Shown: positions 18,001-24,000 of the stretch, piece by piece
Layout of the letters: each line of letters starts with the position of its first letter
How positions within the stretch are numbered: position 1 is the first letter of the stretch
Assembly: GCF_006345805.1 (NCBI RefSeq)
Contig: NW_021831284.1
Span: forward strand, 682,001 to 746,000
Length of the DNA: 64,000 nucleotides
Direction: 5' to 3'
Source: Octopus sinensis
Lineage: Eukaryota
Made by a program: the position numbers

Positions 18001-21000
18001 CTGCTCATATCAATGCCCAATATTGTGGTCGCCATTTTAAATTTCTGAGATATGGCACAGATCCATCTATGTCCCCATACTACATCTGCAGTTGATCGCC
18101 CAGGCCTGAATCCACTTTGGCTAGCCGACAGATATTCATTAACAGGGTCCTTAATACGTTCCAGTGTTACGAGTGAAAAGATTTTCCTTATTATTAAATA
18201 TAAAAAATTAAATTGTTAGCGATAGTTTTATAAATTTAATAAAAATTTTCGACTAAGGCAGATTTGTTGGAGGATTATAACTTTCACATTTTAATTGTAC
18301 CTCAGTCTTAAGTTTGCCATAAACCATTCCATCTTCATCGTGAGAATATGCTTTCACAATCTCAATAGGACTTTTATTTGTCTTGATAAGATAATTTCCG
18401 GATCCACATGCTCCGACAAGTGTACTGTCATTCCCAATAAAAACTGTTTTTTCTTGAAATTTATATTTTGCCCATTCATTTTCAATAAGACCAGTATAAA
18501 CAAGTAAATATCGTTGATAATCGTTTAATGTCGTAGCCGTATATTTCCAGCATTCTGAATCAATTATTTCAGTTTTTGTTTTTAGATTTAGGCTTGAAAT
18601 TTCTAAAATTGCATTTAAAACAAAACATATAAAAAATAAAATACGAAAGCTCTTCATCTTAAAATGAAATTTACGTATCTTTAAATTTGTATTTAAGCAG
18701 AAATTAACTAATTTCTTAATTAATATATTTTTAAATATCTCTATTTAGAAATTTTATTTTCATTAATTTTGTGATGCTCACGTAATGGAGAATACTTTCG
18801 GAATTGATTTGTTTTTGTTGGCTATCAAAAAAGTGTTATTTTATAGCTACAGTACACTCTTTATTTTATTTCTCTACAAAATACATTTTTCCTTCCTATA
18901 GAATACTCTGAGATATTCCGTAAATTAAAAAAAATATTATTAGAAATTTGTATTTTCTTATTAATTTAATTTAGTAAATTATAAATAATACACTTTTTAA
19001 CACGTTTTCTAGTTTTGGTCTTAGTTGTTCTTATGCTTAGAAATGTCGCTTATGGCGCTTTTTTTAGTATGTTTAAAGGTTTTTATAGGCGTTTTTGGTT
19101 GTTAATGTATATATTTAAATTAAGTTTGTATGTCTCTTATACTTGATGAAAATCTGTGCTCAGATTTATATGCTGATTCATTCACGCTGATCTGATATAT
19201 ATTGAGACTTTTAAAATTTAATTTAACTTTTTAAAAATATTAAATCAATTTATTTAAAATTTATTTGTTTTGATTGTTACTCTGTTTCATGTTGCAAAAT
19301 GGCCCTATAACAGCGATCTCTGTAGTTTCTGATGATTTGAGAACTCCTGACAATTTCATTACAGTTATTATTTATGATTTATATAAAAACAGCTTTTCAC
19401 CACAAATGGAGGCGAAGATGCCGATATTGGCTGGTCTACCACATTTAAACGAAAAAAACGATATTTAGCTATTTCTAGGGTCTTTTTACATTTTATATTT
19501 TAGGAAGAAACAAATTACGTTGTTTCTGACGTGGTAATATTCGACGAAAATTCTCCCACTCCAAATGATTATATTCCCATCACTATGACAAATAATAGTT
19601 TTAATTTTATTATTAAATCGAACAGATAAAGACAAGGCATTGAAGAATAAAATAATTTTAGTAAGATATGAACAATCCGCTCGGGCAGAAAATATTCTTG
19701 TGGATATTATACTATCAACCACACCTTGCCCTCCTGGAGGATATTTTCTGATTGGGTATTTTTAATATATTAATTAAAATAATTGTTTAATACACTTTTA
19801 TGTAGTGAGGTGAATAGAATTTCAATTTTTGGTAGGCTACAACAAAAATCTACAACACGGTATTTATTAGATTTATAATTTTCTAAAAGTTTGTCTATTC
19901 CGAATGTGGTTCCATTTAAGAAGAGTTTATGCAATGAATCGTATATGTATTTAAATGTGAATTTAGGGTTTTGGACATTAGTAGATTGCTGTTTAAGTTT
20001 GACAAATCATTGGAGGAATCTCTCTATAGCGATCAGGTTTTTCTTGTTTGATTGAAAATTATTTAGTCTTGTATTTTAAATGAGACTTGGAATTGGTTTA
20101 ATGCTTATAAGTTTCTCTTTTGTCTGATTTTTTAGATCAAAAAATTGGTATTTTGATTTTGACTTGGAAAATAACTTTCTTAATTCTTTAACTTAATTTT
20201 CTTTTTTAATTTGTATTAATAATATGCGATAATTTATTTTGGTGCCGAAAAATTAGCATGTCTGTCCACTCAATAAATTAGTCTTATAATTATTTTAATA
20301 TCGAGTAATTAAGTCAAAATATGCGTTGAATATATTGATGGATCTGACAAAAAATTCACTCAAAACAATTTAAAAAGTAGTTAAAAATCATCTCAGCATT
20401 TTTCTAATAAATAATTGATAAGTCCATGTTTTCCAAACTTCAAATTAGCCCGGAAGATTTCAATATGTTTACATACTTCACGAATTATCTCTTTTTTATT
20501 GACAACGTGAAAATAGTTACTCTCAAAGATGTGCTAGTCAAAATGATGGAGGTTGTTAATAGATTTTTTTTGAATTTAGAAATGAATTCTGAAAAATCAC
20601 CCTTTAATGTGGTATCTTTCCCATGCTCTGAGACTCTCGGTGAAATCAACTGATATCGGTACTTTAGTCTACGTAACGACAGCAGAATTAATGTTTCCAA
20701 GAATTAATAGACTCCATAGTGGAGAGTATCAAGACGAGGATAACTATATTGTCACAAATAAATAGGTAGGAGCAATTTTTGGTAGTTTAGATTGTAAATC
20801 TTCGCAAAAAACAATTTATACTAAAAATATTTGAACTTTGGATTTACATAAAATGGAGATTGTACATAGTCACTACCAAGGTGTATTGTATGCAGTAAAA
20901 TTCTTTCAAATAATAGAATGGCCCCTTCTAAGGTGAATGCTCCCTTCTACTTCTGTGAGGACAGGGAGAAGTAAGAAAGTCAGAATACGAGCCATCCGGC

Positions 21001-24000
21001 TAGCTCATGGCTTAGGATGGCGAAGGGAGCTTTTAACGCCCAGGAATTGTCCCTCAAAGGCCTCCCTGAGGTCCTAGAGAAGATAATCTTAGCTTGTAGT
21101 TAAGAGGTGAGCGTTTGTGCGGGACTGAAAAGGCAGGAATGCCGAAGGTCTTTATCTGCTTTCTACTAACAGCCTCTATTTAAAAAATATTTTTTTCTTC
21201 TTCAAACAATTATGTTAGCCTAATGGCCTAAATGAAGATGTTCGTTAAAGATGATGCAGAGTAAAATCTACTGAAATCTGTTTTTGAAGGTCAAGAAGTT
21301 AAAAAATTCCGACTAAAAGAGAAAGCTGAAAATTTCATTCTTATTGACAAAAAGCTATATCTGGAAATACTAATACGACTTCAGAAGTTTGTTATAGCTT
21401 TAACATGCAAAGAAGAAATGAAAATCATTGCTCAAAAAATCCACGAAACAAATCACTGTGGTCATAATACTTTGCAGAAAGATTTTTTGTAATCAAGCAA
21501 AAAAAACATTCGTCAAGTCGTAAGTGAGTGCAATATATGCAAGTTTGCTGTGGCACTAAAACAGTATGACGATTCGAGTCATATTATCGCGGATTTACCT
21601 AATGAAAGGTTTGAAGTTTATTAGTTATTATTGTGAATTTTAGAGTCAAAATGATCATTTTTCTAGGTTGATGTCTGTAGTAGACATATATTCAAAATAT
21701 TTAAAACCATCAAAATAGGTTTAATAAAACTATAGAGTTCAACATTAACATTTAAGAGAGTTGAAGTTTAATTTTTACAGCCAAGTTTAATCTCAATTTT
21801 TAAGACCTAGACTAAGAAGTCATTAAATGTTTTAAAGGAACTTTTAACACCTGAGGTGACAAAATGTTATATATTATTAACAAAATTACGATACAGCCAG
21901 CATGGCCGAGTGGTTAAGGCGGTAGCTTAAGGTGCTATTACAGTAATGTGCGTGGGTTCGAATCCCACTGCTGGTATTTTATCCTTTTATAAGGTTTTCA
22001 ACATCAGAAAGTAAAACACGATGTCGAATCTTGATTTTGATATATACATTTATTTCCTTTTGATAATGCATTTAAAAGAAAAGGCTGTTGCTAAAACATT
22101 GTTTCAGAAATTAATGACAAAAAATCTAAAATTTTTTTTGATATTATGAAAATTTTAATTTGAGTATTAATATGGAGGGAAAAATTTAGCATTCCTACTG
22201 AAGAACAAGCCTAGGTCGTATCAAAAAGTTCATTGCAAAATCACTTACGGCCAAAGAACTGATTATTTTGTACTTTCTCTAAGATAATAAGGCAGGTTTA
22301 TGGCTGCCTTTGCTGATTGTATTTAAAGTAAATAATTCCTTCGCATAAGCTCTGACAATTTCGGAGCTGCAAAACTCCAAGATTAAGTTTTCAGACTATA
22401 GTAATGTTATTCGTGCTTTAGACGTAGATTTGTATCTCGATAAGTCAGCCGGTTTATTCGTGCTTTATCAATCGTACCATTGAGTAAATCAGCCGGTTCG
22501 GACTTTTTATCGATTCAGTAAATTAACACGTGTTCAGAAACTGGCTTGAGAGTTGAAAAAATGGCTTAAATTGTGTCAGTTTAATCAAAAATTTAACAAA
22601 TTTGTTCCTAAGAATAGCTTTCAATGATAAGATAAAATCTCCATTTTTAGCAATAAAAAATTGTTATTTATTAATTATGAATCAACGGAAATTGATTAAA
22701 TCACAATTCGAATGAATGTTATACGTCCCTTTTTTACTTGGTTGAACGTAATACTTCTCTTTGTATAAAAATATGATTAATTTTTATTTTTATAGTTAAT
22801 TACAGAAATTTTTGTCTATGCTGGAGCCATGGTGCTCCGGAACTATGTCAAATTGGGAAATCCGTCGATAAAAACTATTCAATATTCAGGGATTTTTTAT
22901 ATAATTATTGCTGTAATGATTTTTATCGGATTAATATGTGGAATTTTATCACTGAAAACAAAAAAGCGTCCTTCTTGCAGAATAATTGTAAACTAATTTT
23001 TCCAATAAATTACTATATAGTATGTTATCATTCTTTTTTTCGTTTGTGGATTCGTCTTAACTATCCTGTCCTTATTTTATTTTCATACATCTACCGTATC
23101 TTTTAATAGTTATTTCTAGTGTGTTGAAAATTTTAAACGTGTTTTTTTATGGGCCATTAAGAAATATGAAGAAACCAGTCCAGAAGTCGACTTTTGGCAA
23201 AAAACCTTCCAATGCTGCGGTGCTTATTCCCCTGACGATTATAATGGAAATATTACATCAAGTTGTTATATTTCTGAAAATCTTTTTAAAATTAACATTT
23301 ATGAAACTGTTTCTAATTCTTAATGTATTTTAGGGATGCGTACATAAAATAATATCACTAATCGAGGAAAATAAAATTCCATTAACGGCAGTCAGTGGGA
23401 GTATTTGTTTAGTCACGGTTTATATTTCATTATTAATATTTATAGTTTCTTGGAATATGTTTTTCGTTTGTAAAATTTTAAATCTTATAGTTAAATTTAA
23501 CTGATTTTTGATTAAATATCTGGACTATTTATTGTCTTTATTTAATTTTTGAATATTTGCTTTTTTAGTTAAGATAGTTACATGAAACTTGTCCTTTTAA
23601 TCAGGCAGCAGATGTATTTAAAACCACGAGTATAAAAGACATTTTTATTATAAGAAAAGCCCAACATTCAGCAGAAAATTCCTTTGATTTGAATAATTTT
23701 TTATTTTTATTAGAATCTGTAAAATTGAGAGCTTAGTAAGTACATTCAAAACTTTTTCTAATGACTACAAAATTTGATATCGATCCCTGAATTTTGTAAA
23801 AACGGTAGTTTAAATACAATTTATACACATGTAAATCAATGATACTTAAAAGTCCCATTTAACAGAAAAATATCAATGAGAATGGTGAGGAATGTCTGTA
23901 AATGGGGATGGTTCCATTCTGTCTAAAATATGAGTGAGAATTTTCAAAAAAATAGCTAAAAATGTTAAAAATAGATAAGACAAATCGGATGTTTAGTTTG

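What the first reader, a model, noticed from the sequence alone, without database searches (positions are those of the whole stretch)
20912..21196. ~270-nt highly structured RNA with an RNase P/MRP-like P4 pseudoknot but atypical domain layout
A GC-rich island folds into nested helices: a closing stem (20912-22/21172-80), a 9-bp stem (20939-47/21022-30), a P3-like hairpin with loop gtgaggacaggg, and GAAAGUC (CR-I-like) pairing 10 bp with 21155-64 leaving a bulged U, the hallmark of P4. There are further hairpins including GGCA-GGAA-TGCC, and a T7 run that could be a Pol III terminator. G-U pairs and the GNRA loop favour the + strand. If the 9-bp stem is P2, the specificity domain is reduced to one hairpin and ~125 nt sit in the P19 position. 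CR-V is non-canonical, so this may be a highly derived RNase P/MRP RNA or a new ncRNA.
Basis: partly seen in the sequence, partly recalled or inferred. Interest (0 to 1): 0.72.

Follow-up and report, generated by a model that had tools for sequence, protein, structure and literature searches.

The report
Structured GC-rich RNA candidate, not RNase P/MRP
A single-copy GC-rich island in an AT-rich, probably dicyemid-parasite genome folds into an unusually stable 92-base three-way junction and may be an unclassified small RNA gene, but the tests run here give no support for calling it an RNase P or MRP RNA.

Summary
Only the 5' part is more structured than chance. The three-way junction at 20939-21030 has z = -4.09, with 0 of 200 shuffles as stable. 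Its 120-nt window ranks 5th of 8518 windows in the 64 kb, behind one locus inside a transposon. The whole ~290 nt is unremarkable (z = -1.48).

The RNase P/MRP reading fails its tests. No P, MRP, SRP or 7SK match appears in Rfam even at E <= 10. The P4-like duplex (-11.7 kcal/mol) is equalled in 150 of 2000 shuffles. It ranks 6th of the 13 GAAAGUC sites in the window. The strict CR-I and CR-V patterns are absent, and no CR-IV sits where it should. A canonical threading costs about 29 kcal/mol.

No evidence was found for coding or for a repeat.

My best reading, held weakly, is an orphan + strand small RNA locus. A neutral GC-rich remnant is nearly as likely. No related eukaryotic genome could be searched.

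The parts
20908..20916 (+). TATA-like AAATAATAG, about 23-31 nt upstream of G20939 (possible upstream promoter element; inferred only)
   Evidence: Read. All-A/T 8-mers start at 6.8% of window positions, so this is weak. tRNA-Leu also has TATATAT about 27 nt upstream.
20912..20922 (+). 5' strand of the AU-rich closing stem, pairing with 21172-21180
   Evidence: Present in the MFE. Mean pair probability of the 6 AU pairs is 0.88. It adds no significance to the whole fold (z = -1.48).
20926..20938 (+). Leader strand that can extend the long stem by pairing with 21031-21046
   Evidence: MFE of 20926-21046 is -47.3 kcal/mol, z = -3.96, 0 of 200 shuffles.
20939..21030 (+). Core three-way junction. 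It comprises the 9-bp stem 20939-47/21022-30, hairpin 1 at 20948-73 (7 bp, 12-nt loop), a 17-nt single-stranded purine-rich linker at 20974-90 that holds GAAAGUC, and hairpin 2 at 20991-21021 (7 bp, UA bulge, 5 bp with two G-U pairs, loop GCUCA).
   Evidence: -40.3 kcal/mol, z = -4.09, 0 of 200 shuffles. Pair probabilities are 0.99, 0.92 and 1.0; the linker is 0.90 unpaired. The window starting at 20926 ranks 5 of 8518.
20974..20984 (+). CR-I-like AGAAAGUCAGA, the 5' strand of the proposed P4
   Evidence: Read. GAAAGTC occurs 13 times in the window on both strands. The strict CR-I pattern is not met.
21031..21034 (+). T4 run directly after the 9-bp stem; a possible Pol III stop that would give a ~96-nt RNA
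   Evidence: tRNA-Leu is followed directly by TTTT. That this run terminates transcription is inference.
21047..21105 (+). Two hairpins, 21047-86 and 21087-21105
   Evidence: z = -3.05 on + (3 of 200) against -0.63 on - (54 of 200).
21106..21164 (+). Irregular hairpin with GGCA-GGAA-UGCC (21132-43) at its tip. Its 3' side holds UCUGCUUUCU (21155-64), the proposed P4 3' strand.
   Evidence: 21107-21170 has z = -0.63. GGCA/UGCC pair probability is 0.71; 21155-64 is 0.34 unpaired. Duplex with 20971-85 is -11.7 kcal/mol, not above chance.
21172..21180 (+). 3' strand of the closing stem
21190..21196 (+). T7 run inside an A6-TA-T7 palindrome; a possible terminator of a ~255-290-nt form
   Evidence: A T7+ run starts within 40 nt downstream of 2.8% of window positions. 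The A/T palindrome recurs elsewhere in the window.

Best explanation
The locus is a GC-rich, + strand structured element that occurs once in this window. It is most likely an orphan, lineage-specific small non-coding RNA gene in a fast-evolving animal parasite, probably a dicyemid. It is not a recognisable RNase P or MRP RNA.

Shown:
- A 92-nt module at 20939-21030 in which a perfect 9-bp stem joins the two ends.
- The stem stacks on a 7-bp hairpin and holds a second hairpin.
- A 17-nt purine-rich strand, AGAAAGUCAGAAUACGA, is left about 90% unpaired.

Inferred:
- Transcription starts near G20939, about 25-30 nt after the A/T-rich box AAATAATAG, in the manner of upstream-promoter Pol III genes.
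- The T4 at 21031-34 would then give a ~96-nt RNA with paired ends and an oligo-U tail.
- Read-through to the T7 at 21190 would give a ~255-nt form that adds two + strand-specific hairpins.
- The exposed linker is the most likely working surface, for pairing or for protein binding. It can pair with 21155-64, but nothing shows that it does.
For: - GC island of 0.49 in flanks of 0.25-0.33. This is GC-richer than the 2-kb windows that hold this window's coding genes (0.30-0.38 over 42001-54000) and close to the two tRNA genes (0.53 and 0.61).
- The 5' module has z = -4.09, 0 of 200 shuffles, and is the second most structured locus of the window (rank 5 of 8518 windows).
- Strand asymmetry. 21047-21106 has z = -3.05 on + and -0.63 on -. 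The whole element folds to -91.1 on + and -78.5 kcal/mol on -. The window at 20926 ranks 5 on + and 55 on -.
- No other copy in 64 kb by blastn. The covariance model R1, run without filters, gave 17 matches at E <= 10: the locus itself, its own reverse strand, and 15 others of at most 11.8 bits with E >= 0.62.
- The flanks are not repeated either.
- No coding signal. Pfam found 0 families for the 4 ORFs of the island. The 42-aa ORF found no protein. The 46-aa ORF found 4 representatives, all long repeat proteins, and blastp gave no alignment to them at E <= 10. Six-frame tblastn against the window gave 12 hits outside the locus, all with E >= 0.82.
- A tRNA-Leu gene lies 700 nt downstream on the same strand.
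Against: - No transcript data and no related genome, so there is no covariation and no proof of expression.
- The only more structured locus in the window lies inside a transposon ORF (3421-3540, z = -6.09 and -4.77). Fold stability alone therefore does not mark an RNA gene here.
- The minus strand of the core also folds well (z = -3.62).
- The 3' third and the whole element are not significantly structured.
- The promoter and terminator calls rest on A/T-rich motifs in an A/T-rich genome. T5+ runs start within 40 nt downstream of 22% of positions, and all-A/T 8-mers start at 6.8% of positions.
- The surroundings are rich in transposons: an RT ORF at 16953-18215 and an integrase-like ORF piece at 21265-21624.
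- A 9-of-10 direct repeat, TTCAAATAAT / TTCAAACAAT, flanks the island. It could be a target-site duplication.
- No Rfam family gives it a name.
Confidence: 0.4

Rival explanations
1. It is a neutral GC-rich remnant: a fragment of a transposon, a retroposed copy or other decayed insert. Its inverted repeats fold well by origin, and it has no function as an RNA.
For: - The window is transposon-rich. Repeats make up 48.9% of the Dicyema japonicum genome (PMC6736024, passages).
- Other GC-rich islands of the window are transposon pieces.
- The best-folding locus of the window sits in a transposon ORF.
- Both strands of the core fold well.
- A 9-of-10 direct repeat flanks the island at 20905-14 and 21201-10.
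- An integrase-like ORF piece follows at 21265-21624.
Against: - No second copy or relative in 64 kb at DNA, structure or translated level.
- The flanks are unique as well.
- Reading, I see no poly-A tail and no terminal inverted repeats.
- By my own rough estimate the flanking repeat has about a 0.3 chance of arising in A/T-rich flanks.
- The + strand preference of 21047-21106 is not expected from a pure DNA palindrome.
Confidence: 0.35
2. It is a highly derived RNase MRP or RNase P RNA. In that reading the 9-bp stem is P2, hairpin 1 is P3, AGAAAG[U]CAGA with 21155-64 is P4, the specificity domain is reduced to one hairpin, and about 125 nt sit at the P19 position.
For: - The order stem, stacked hairpin, GAAAGUC strand, hairpin, return strand, later partner strand, closing stem has the topology of the P1-P2-P3-P4 core.
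- The bulged U falls at the position of the universally conserved P4 uridine (role of that U: PMC10966300, passages).
- Freeing both P4 strands costs only 3.3 kcal/mol: -87.3 against -90.6.
- The 5' strand is 90% unpaired.
- The host genome is fast-evolving: its PGM3 ORF is at most 40% identical to any of the 120 hits listed. Rfam models might therefore fail on it.
- P3 without an internal loop has precedent in Giardia (PMC3228867, passages). Loss of the T-loop anchor has precedent in Pyrobaculum type T (PMC10966300).
Against: - No Rfam match to any P or MRP model at E <= 10 on 701 nt or on 316 nt.
- The duplex is within chance: 150 of 2000 shuffles, and rank 6 of 13 GAAAGUC sites.
- The strict CR-I pattern is absent; I count 5 of 7 recalled fixed positions. 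The CR-V pattern is absent.
- No nucleotides lie between hairpin 2 and the return strand, where CR-IV must be. CR-I, CR-IV and CR-V together form the universal active site (PMC10966300; PMC13184271).
- No GARAR pentaloop and no P5.
- A threading that restores the canonical order, with AGGAAU at 21135-40 as CR-IV, folds to -58.7 against -87.3 kcal/mol.
- Even Giardia MRP RNA keeps the CR-I and CR-V sequences and was found with Infernal (PMC3228867).
- The internal T4 would be awkward if Pol III makes the RNA.
Confidence: 0.08
3. It is another universal RNA, such as SRP RNA, 7SK or telomerase RNA, diverged beyond the reach of Rfam.
For: - The size (~250-290 nt) and the T-run fit such RNAs.
- The 5' module, a stem enclosing two hairpins whose loops GUGAG and CUCAU are complementary, recalls the SRP Alu domain. 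That comparison is recalled, not tested.
Against: - No Rfam hit to any SRP, 7SK or telomerase family at E <= 10.
- By my reading there is no helix-8-like motif around the GGAA loop, no GAUC pair motifs and no telomere template. These motifs are recalled and come from no call.
Confidence: 0.06
4. It is one or more exons of a protein-coding gene with ultra-short introns.
For: - Introns in this genome are tiny.
- A 21-nt GT..AG stretch could join the frame ending at 20970 to the 42-aa ORF at 20975-21103 (read).
- A 46-codon ORF starts at 20937.
Against: - Stops in all six frames.
- Pfam found 0 families for the 4 ORFs.
- No protein shares the 42-aa ORF, although the window's own RT ORF is in that database.
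- The 46-aa ORF hits only repeat proteins.
- The GC content is well above that of the 2-kb windows holding the window's coding genes.
- The joined model itself was not searched, by rule.
Confidence: 0.04

Closest known systems
RNase MRP RNA (Rfam RF00030) and nuclear RNase P RNA (RF00009)
   Same: - A stem with a coaxial hairpin is followed by a single strand holding GAAAGUC.
- That strand can pair with a strand near the 3' end and leave a U bulged.
- An outer closing stem is present.
- Length is about 270 nt, and a T-run follows.
   Different: - No covariance-model match.
- No CR-IV, no CR-V consensus, no P5/P7, no GARAR P8 loop and no CR-II/III module in the right place.
- Only one hairpin lies between the P4 5' strand and the return strand of P2, and 125 nt lie after it.
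- The pseudoknot is not above chance.
Minimal RNase P RNAs (Pyrobaculum type T)
   Same: They are the precedent for losing the T-loop specificity module while keeping the catalytic core (PMC10966300, passages).
   Different: As I recall, type T keeps the conserved catalytic-core regions. This locus lacks CR-IV and CR-V.
SRP RNA Alu domain, and small Pol III RNAs with paired ends (Y and vault RNAs); comparison recalled, not tested
   Same: - A short stem encloses two hairpins with complementary loops.
- The 5' and 3' ends are paired and followed by oligo-U.
- An A/T-rich box lies about 25-30 nt upstream.
   Different: - No Rfam match to SRP, Y or vault families at E <= 10.
- The linker is 17 nt rather than a short U-turn.
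- I found no Ro-binding bulge and no convincing A/B boxes when reading.

Membership tests
RNase P RNA / RNase MRP RNA | Match to the curated covariance models (Rfam RNase P and MRP families) | tested here: not met
   - Gathering threshold on the whole window: only 2 tRNAs.
- E <= 1 on the whole window: 3 matches, namely the 2 tRNAs and a mascRNA overlap of tRNA-Pro.
- E <= 10 on 20700-21400: 6 matches, none P or MRP.
- E <= 10 on 20890-21205: 5 matches, none P or MRP, the best 18.2 bits to a Streptococcus sRNA.
RNase P RNA / RNase MRP RNA | P4 pseudoknot between CR-I and CR-V with the conserved bulged uridine | tested here: inconclusive
   - 10 bp with U20980 bulged can be drawn, and the strands are largely free.
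- The -11.7 kcal/mol duplex is reached in 150 of 2000 and 147 of 2000 shuffles.
- It ranks 6th of 13 GAAAGUC sites.
RNase P RNA / RNase MRP RNA | CR-I consensus (recalled as GNAANNUCNGNG) | tested here: not met
   The strict pattern has 0 matches in 20900-21200. The loose pattern AA..UC.G matches once, at 20976. By eye, 5 of the 7 fixed positions fit.
RNase P RNA / RNase MRP RNA | CR-V consensus (recalled as ACNNNANNNNGNNUA) upstream of and within the P4 3' strand | tested here: not met
   0 matches. The only AC...A is at 21124 and is not followed by a P4 partner.
RNase P RNA / RNase MRP RNA | CR-IV just before the 3' strand of P2: eight nt in P, six nt in MRP, with conserved A1, G2 and A7 (PMC13184271) | tested here: not met
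   - In the stable fold no nucleotide separates hairpin 2 (ends at 21021) from the return strand (starts at 21022).
- AGNNNNAU occurs only at 20931, in the leader.
- Using AGGAAU at 21135-40 needs a refold to -58.7 against -87.3 kcal/mol.
RNase MRP RNA | 3-bp P5 next to CR-I and a P8 pentaloop GARAR (PMC13184271) | tested here: not met
   The hairpin after the CR-I-like strand starts 6 nt later and has the loop GCUCA. The GARAR matches at 20966, 20975, 21077 and 21127 are not hairpin loops.
Nuclear RNase P RNA | CR-II/III T-loop module in a specificity domain between the P4 5' strand and the P2 3' strand | tested here: not met
   Only one 31-nt hairpin lies there. The AGARA and UGNNA motif hits lie elsewhere. 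The motif forms are recalled.
RNase P RNA / RNase MRP RNA | Association with Pop/Rpp proteins and cleavage of pre-tRNA or pre-rRNA | not testable with these tools
   No expression or biochemical data; the whole genome is not available.
SRP RNA, 7SK and other Rfam families | Match to the family model | tested here: not met
   No such family appears among the matches at E <= 10.
SINE or other multicopy transposon | Many dispersed copies, target-site duplication, tail or terminal repeats | tested here: inconclusive
   - One copy in 64 kb.
- A 9-of-10 flanking direct repeat is compatible with chance.
- I saw no tail and no terminal inverted repeats.
- Genome-wide copy number is not testable here.

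The most novel reading that the evidence does not exclude
The locus is the catalytic RNA of RNase MRP or P of a dicyemid, rebuilt beyond anything known. It would keep P1-P2-P3 and a P4 with the bulged uridine, lose CR-IV and the canonical CR-V, shrink the specificity domain to one hairpin, and carry three helices at the P19 position. That would be why the Rfam models miss it.
Probability: 0.08. Interest if true: 0.8.

Novelty: new member of a known kind. Interest (0 to 1): 0.3.

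Why it matters
If the 5' module is a real transcript, it would be an orphan structured small RNA from one of the most reduced and least studied animal lineages. I found no ncRNA annotation for that lineage: 'RNase', 'ncRNA' and 'snRNA' occur 0 times in PMC6543705, 'RNase' and 'noncoding' occur 0 times in PMC6736024, and 'Dicyema' with 'RNase P' gave 4 papers, none about this by title or abstract. 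If it were a rebuilt RNase P/MRP RNA, it would challenge the view that the CR-I/CR-IV/CR-V core is invariant; the evidence here speaks against that. The practical lesson is that a GAAAGUC strand with a downstream partner is not diagnostic in an A/T-rich genome.

Tried and rejected
- **Rfam.** Searched at four settings; nothing beyond tRNAs and noise.
- **Internal tandem duplication of a ~115-nt unit**, suggested by short direct repeats. The local alignment of the two halves scores 21, and 132 of 1000 shuffles reach that. Model R1 does not hit the second half. Rejected.
- **Canonical re-threading.** I used an alternative P2 (20924-34 with 21141-48), GCC/GGC as P5/7, and AGGAAU as a six-nt CR-IV. 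My first run had an off-by-one error (-54.7). Rejected as unstable and post hoc.
- **Other identities weighed while reading.** These were tRNA-Sec (9-bp end stem), hammerhead, group II domain V (hairpin 2 begins GAGCC and has a 2-nt 3' bulge), U5 loop 1 (CUUUUAAC), an Sm site (GUUUGUG), H/ACA and C/D boxes, a spliced-leader RNA (GUAAG at 20971), and a telomerase template. None has the full set of recalled marks. ARAGORN and Rfam give no support.
- **Literature.** Searches for a dicyemid spliced leader or trans-splicing found nothing useful.
- **Organism.**
  - The PGM3 ORF is at most 40% identical to any of the 120 hits listed.
  - Its gene has very short introns.
  - The window's RT ORF has its own cluster. 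Its nearest named relatives are Octopus sinensis proteins, one of them 100% identical over 23% of the query.
  - With PMC6736024 and PMC13644364 (passages), this points to a dicyemid, a kidney parasite of octopus. That is inference, not proof. I did not try to trace any unnamed record.
- **Spliced model.** A possible 21-nt intron would join two frames of the island. I searched the pieces only and left out the joined peptide.
- **Unchecked.**
  - Genome contigs holds only bacteria and archaea and was not used.
  - No eukaryotic genome collection was on hand, so there are no orthologues, no covariation, no genome-wide copy number, and no check for canonical P/MRP loci elsewhere.
Supplementary Figs 15-17 of PMC13184271 (MRP and P alignments across eukaryotes) may bear on how far real members can diverge.
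- **Papers.** All were seen as search listings and 'find' passages only. None was read in full.
- **Recalled items.** The CR-I, CR-IV (P form) and CR-V consensus strings, the AGARA/UGNNA motifs, and the SRP, Y, vault, U5, Sm and domain V marks are recalled and come from no call.

Full report
**The observation**

- the AU-rich closing stem 20912-22/21172-80;
- the perfect 9-bp stem 20939-47/21022-30;
- the 7-bp hairpin with the loop GUGAGGACAGGG;
- AGAAAG[U]CAGA (20974-84), which can pair with UCUGCUUUCU (21155-64) and leave U20980 bulged;
- GGCA-GGAA-UGCC (21132-43);
- a T7 run (21190-96).

The island is 49% G+C, in flanks of 25-33% and a window mean of 33%. The window holds no N.

**How much of it exceeds chance**

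| Stretch | Strand | MFE or z | Shuffles as stable |
|---|---|---|---|
| 20905-21200 (whole) | + | -91.1 kcal/mol, z = -1.48 | 16 of 200 |
| 20905-21200 (whole) | - | -78.5 kcal/mol, z = -0.53 | 56 of 200 |
| 20939-21189 | + | z = -1.65 | 10 of 200 |
| 20939-21189 | - | z = -0.81 | 46 of 200 |
| 20939-21030 (core) | + | -40.3 kcal/mol, z = -4.09 | 0 of 200 |
| 20939-21030 (core) | - | z = -3.62 | 1 of 200 |
| 21047-21106 | + | z = -3.05 | 3 of 200 |
| 21047-21106 | - | z = -0.63 | 54 of 200 |
| 21107-21170 | + / - | z = -0.63 / +0.99 | 49 / 163 of 200 |

The signal sits in the 5' part, a three-way junction. The hairpins at 21047-21106 are significant on the + strand only. The 3' hairpin region is not significant on either strand.

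The four better windows all lie at 3406-3570. That locus is inside the ORF of a GC-rich transposon and has z = -6.09 and -4.77. So the 5' module is the second most structured locus of the window, ahead of the tRNA-Pro window (rank 12). The same scan also shows that transposon sequence here can fold even better.

**The P4-like pairing**

However, 150 of 2000 dinucleotide shuffles of the target and 147 of 2000 shuffles of the query do as well.
- GAAAGTC occurs 13 times in the window on both strands. Treated the same way, five of the other twelve sites have a better downstream partner, so this locus ranks 6th of 13.
- The pairing is thermodynamically possible. Freeing both strands costs 3.3 kcal/mol. 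The 5' strand is 90% unpaired in the ensemble and the 3' strand 34%.
- It is therefore possible but not evidence.

**Membership in RNase P/MRP**

Rfam release 15 gives only the two tRNA genes at gathering score and at E <= 1 over the whole window. At E <= 10 on 701 nt and on 316 nt, no RNase P, MRP, SRP, 7SK or other long Pol III family appears.

The active site of both enzymes is the pseudoknot of CR-I, CR-IV and CR-V (PMC10966300, passages). RNase MRP is marked by a 3-bp P5 next to CR-I, a GARAR pentaloop in P8 and a six-nt CR-IV. RNase P is marked by a P7 several nt after CR-I, an eight-nt CR-IV and the CR-II/III T-loops (PMC13184271, passages). Even Giardia MRP RNA keeps the CR-I and CR-V sequences and was found with Infernal (PMC3228867, passages).

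Here:
- The strict CR-I and CR-V patterns (recalled forms) have no match. AGNNNNAU occurs only in the leader.
- In the stable fold hairpin 2 abuts the return strand of the 9-bp stem, which leaves no room for CR-IV.
- The hairpin after the CR-I-like strand has the loop GCUCA.
- I tried a threading that restores the canonical order, with AGGAAU (21135-40) as a six-nt CR-IV.

Defining features were tested and not met, so I do not file the locus as RNase P/MRP RNA.

Coding:
- All six frames have stops.
- The four ORFs of 39-46 aa that lie within the island match no Pfam family.
- The 42-aa ORF finds no protein, although the window's own RT ORF is in that database.
- The 46-aa ORF finds 4 representatives, all long repeat proteins matched in many stretches. 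blastp gives no alignment to them at E <= 10.
- A 21-nt GT..AG stretch could join two frames. I searched the pieces only and left the joined peptide out.

Multicopy transposon:
- No second copy of the island or of its flanks appears in the window by blastn.
- None appears with a covariance model of 20926-21046 run without filters. Of 17 matches at E <= 10, one is the locus, one is its reverse strand, and 15 have at most 11.8 bits.
- None appears by six-frame tblastn; the 12 outside hits all have E >= 0.82.
- A 9-of-10 direct repeat flanks the island. In A/T-rich flanks I estimate this has about a 0.3 probability by chance.
- Genome-wide copy number could not be checked.

**Context and organism**

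The island lies between a formin gene (8.8-10.6 kb) and an ABCG-type transporter exon (43.3 kb). The stretch between them shows little but transposon pieces:
- an RT ORF at 16953-18215 on the minus strand;
- an integrase-zinc-finger-like ORF piece at 21265-21624;
- Tc1/mariner remnants at 26.8-28.9 kb.

A tRNA-Leu(AAG) gene lies 700 nt downstream on the same strand, followed directly by TTTT.

The evidence on the organism:
- The phosphoacetylglucosamine mutase gene at 49384-50979 aligns to an insect homologue in three nearly abutting blocks. It has an in-frame TGA inside a 24-nt GT..AG stretch.
- Its 207-aa ORF is at most 40% identical to any of the 120 hits listed.
- The RT ORF's nearest named relatives are Octopus sinensis proteins. 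One is 100% identical over 23% of the query.
- Ultra-short introns in animals are reported only from myxobolid myxozoans and Dicyema japonicum (PMC13644364, passages). D. japonicum was collected from O. sinensis and has 48.9% repeats (PMC6736024, passages).

I infer a dicyemid. This explains why no close protein or RNA relatives were found. It also means Rfam could miss a very derived RNA.

**Best reading**

The locus is a + strand structured element that occurs once in this window, most likely an orphan small RNA gene. Its solid part is the 92-nt three-way junction with a 17-nt exposed purine-rich linker.

The following is inference. An A/T-rich box lies 23-31 nt before G20939. A T4 directly follows the end stem, which would give a ~96-nt RNA with paired ends and an oligo-U tail. 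Read-through to the T7 would give ~255 nt. T7+ runs are rare, starting within 40 nt downstream of 2.8% of positions. T5+ runs (22% of positions) and A/T-rich 8-mers (6.8%) are common.

I put this reading at 0.40, a neutral GC-rich remnant at 0.35, a derived P/MRP RNA at 0.08, another universal RNA beyond Rfam's reach at 0.06, and a coding exon at 0.04.

**What stayed unchecked**

Not tested:
- expression;
- orthologues and covariation;
- genome-wide copy number;
- the presence of canonical P/MRP loci elsewhere in the genome.

Reasons:
- The genome collection on hand holds only prokaryotes.
- Paper supplements were closed.

Noticed in passing
window 49384-50979 (+): A phosphoacetylglucosamine mutase (PGM3/AGM1) gene with ultra-short introns. 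One is a 24-nt GT..AG stretch holding an in-frame TGA near 50283. The 207-aa ORF is at most 40% identical to any of the 120 hits listed. This points to a very fast-evolving animal.
   Followed up: partly
window 16953-18215 (-): A non-LTR reverse-transcriptase ORF. The database holds its own cluster (100% identity, 3 contigs). The nearest named relatives are Octopus sinensis proteins at 49-58% identity, and one 235-aa O. sinensis protein is 100% identical over 23% of the query. This suggests parasite DNA in a host assembly or host-parasite transposon exchange.
   Followed up: partly
window 3406-3570 (both strands): The most stable local fold of the whole window (z = -6.09 on -, -4.77 on +) lies inside the ORF of a GC-rich transposon (2796-3797). 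Relatives of that ORF by eye lie at 7896-8252 and 51629-52165.
   Followed up: partly
window 21896-21976 (+) and 51219-51290 (+): tRNA-Leu(AAG) and tRNA-Pro(AGG) genes. They are followed directly by TTTT and TTTTTT. tRNA-Leu has a TATATAT box about 27 nt upstream.
   Followed up: partly
window 21265-21624 (+): A decayed ORF piece with an integrase zinc-finger-like H..H..C..C pattern (Pfam Integrase_Zn at E = 0.064, below cut-off), directly downstream of the island. It is not repeated in the window.
   Followed up: partly
window 20905-20914 and 21201-21210: The direct repeat TTCAAATAAT / TTCAAACAAT brackets the island with 296-nt spacing. It may be a target-site duplication or chance. Also, GAATGGCCCCTTCTA (20916-30) and GAATGCTCCCTTCTA (20935-49) form a local 19-nt-spaced duplication of the 5' strand of the 9-bp stem.
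   Followed up: partly
window 21245-21303 (+): A weak C/D-box snoRNA-like match (SNORD36, 19.1 bits, E = 3.1, far below the gathering score of 30). I take it as noise.
   Followed up: no
window 8766-10621 (-), 43284-43598 (-), 46771-47211 (-), 53193-53510 (-), 26811-28884: Host gene pieces: formin FH2, an ABC-2 type transporter, a Sec1-family protein and a class IV aminotransferase. Tc1/mariner transposase remnants are also present.
   Followed up: no
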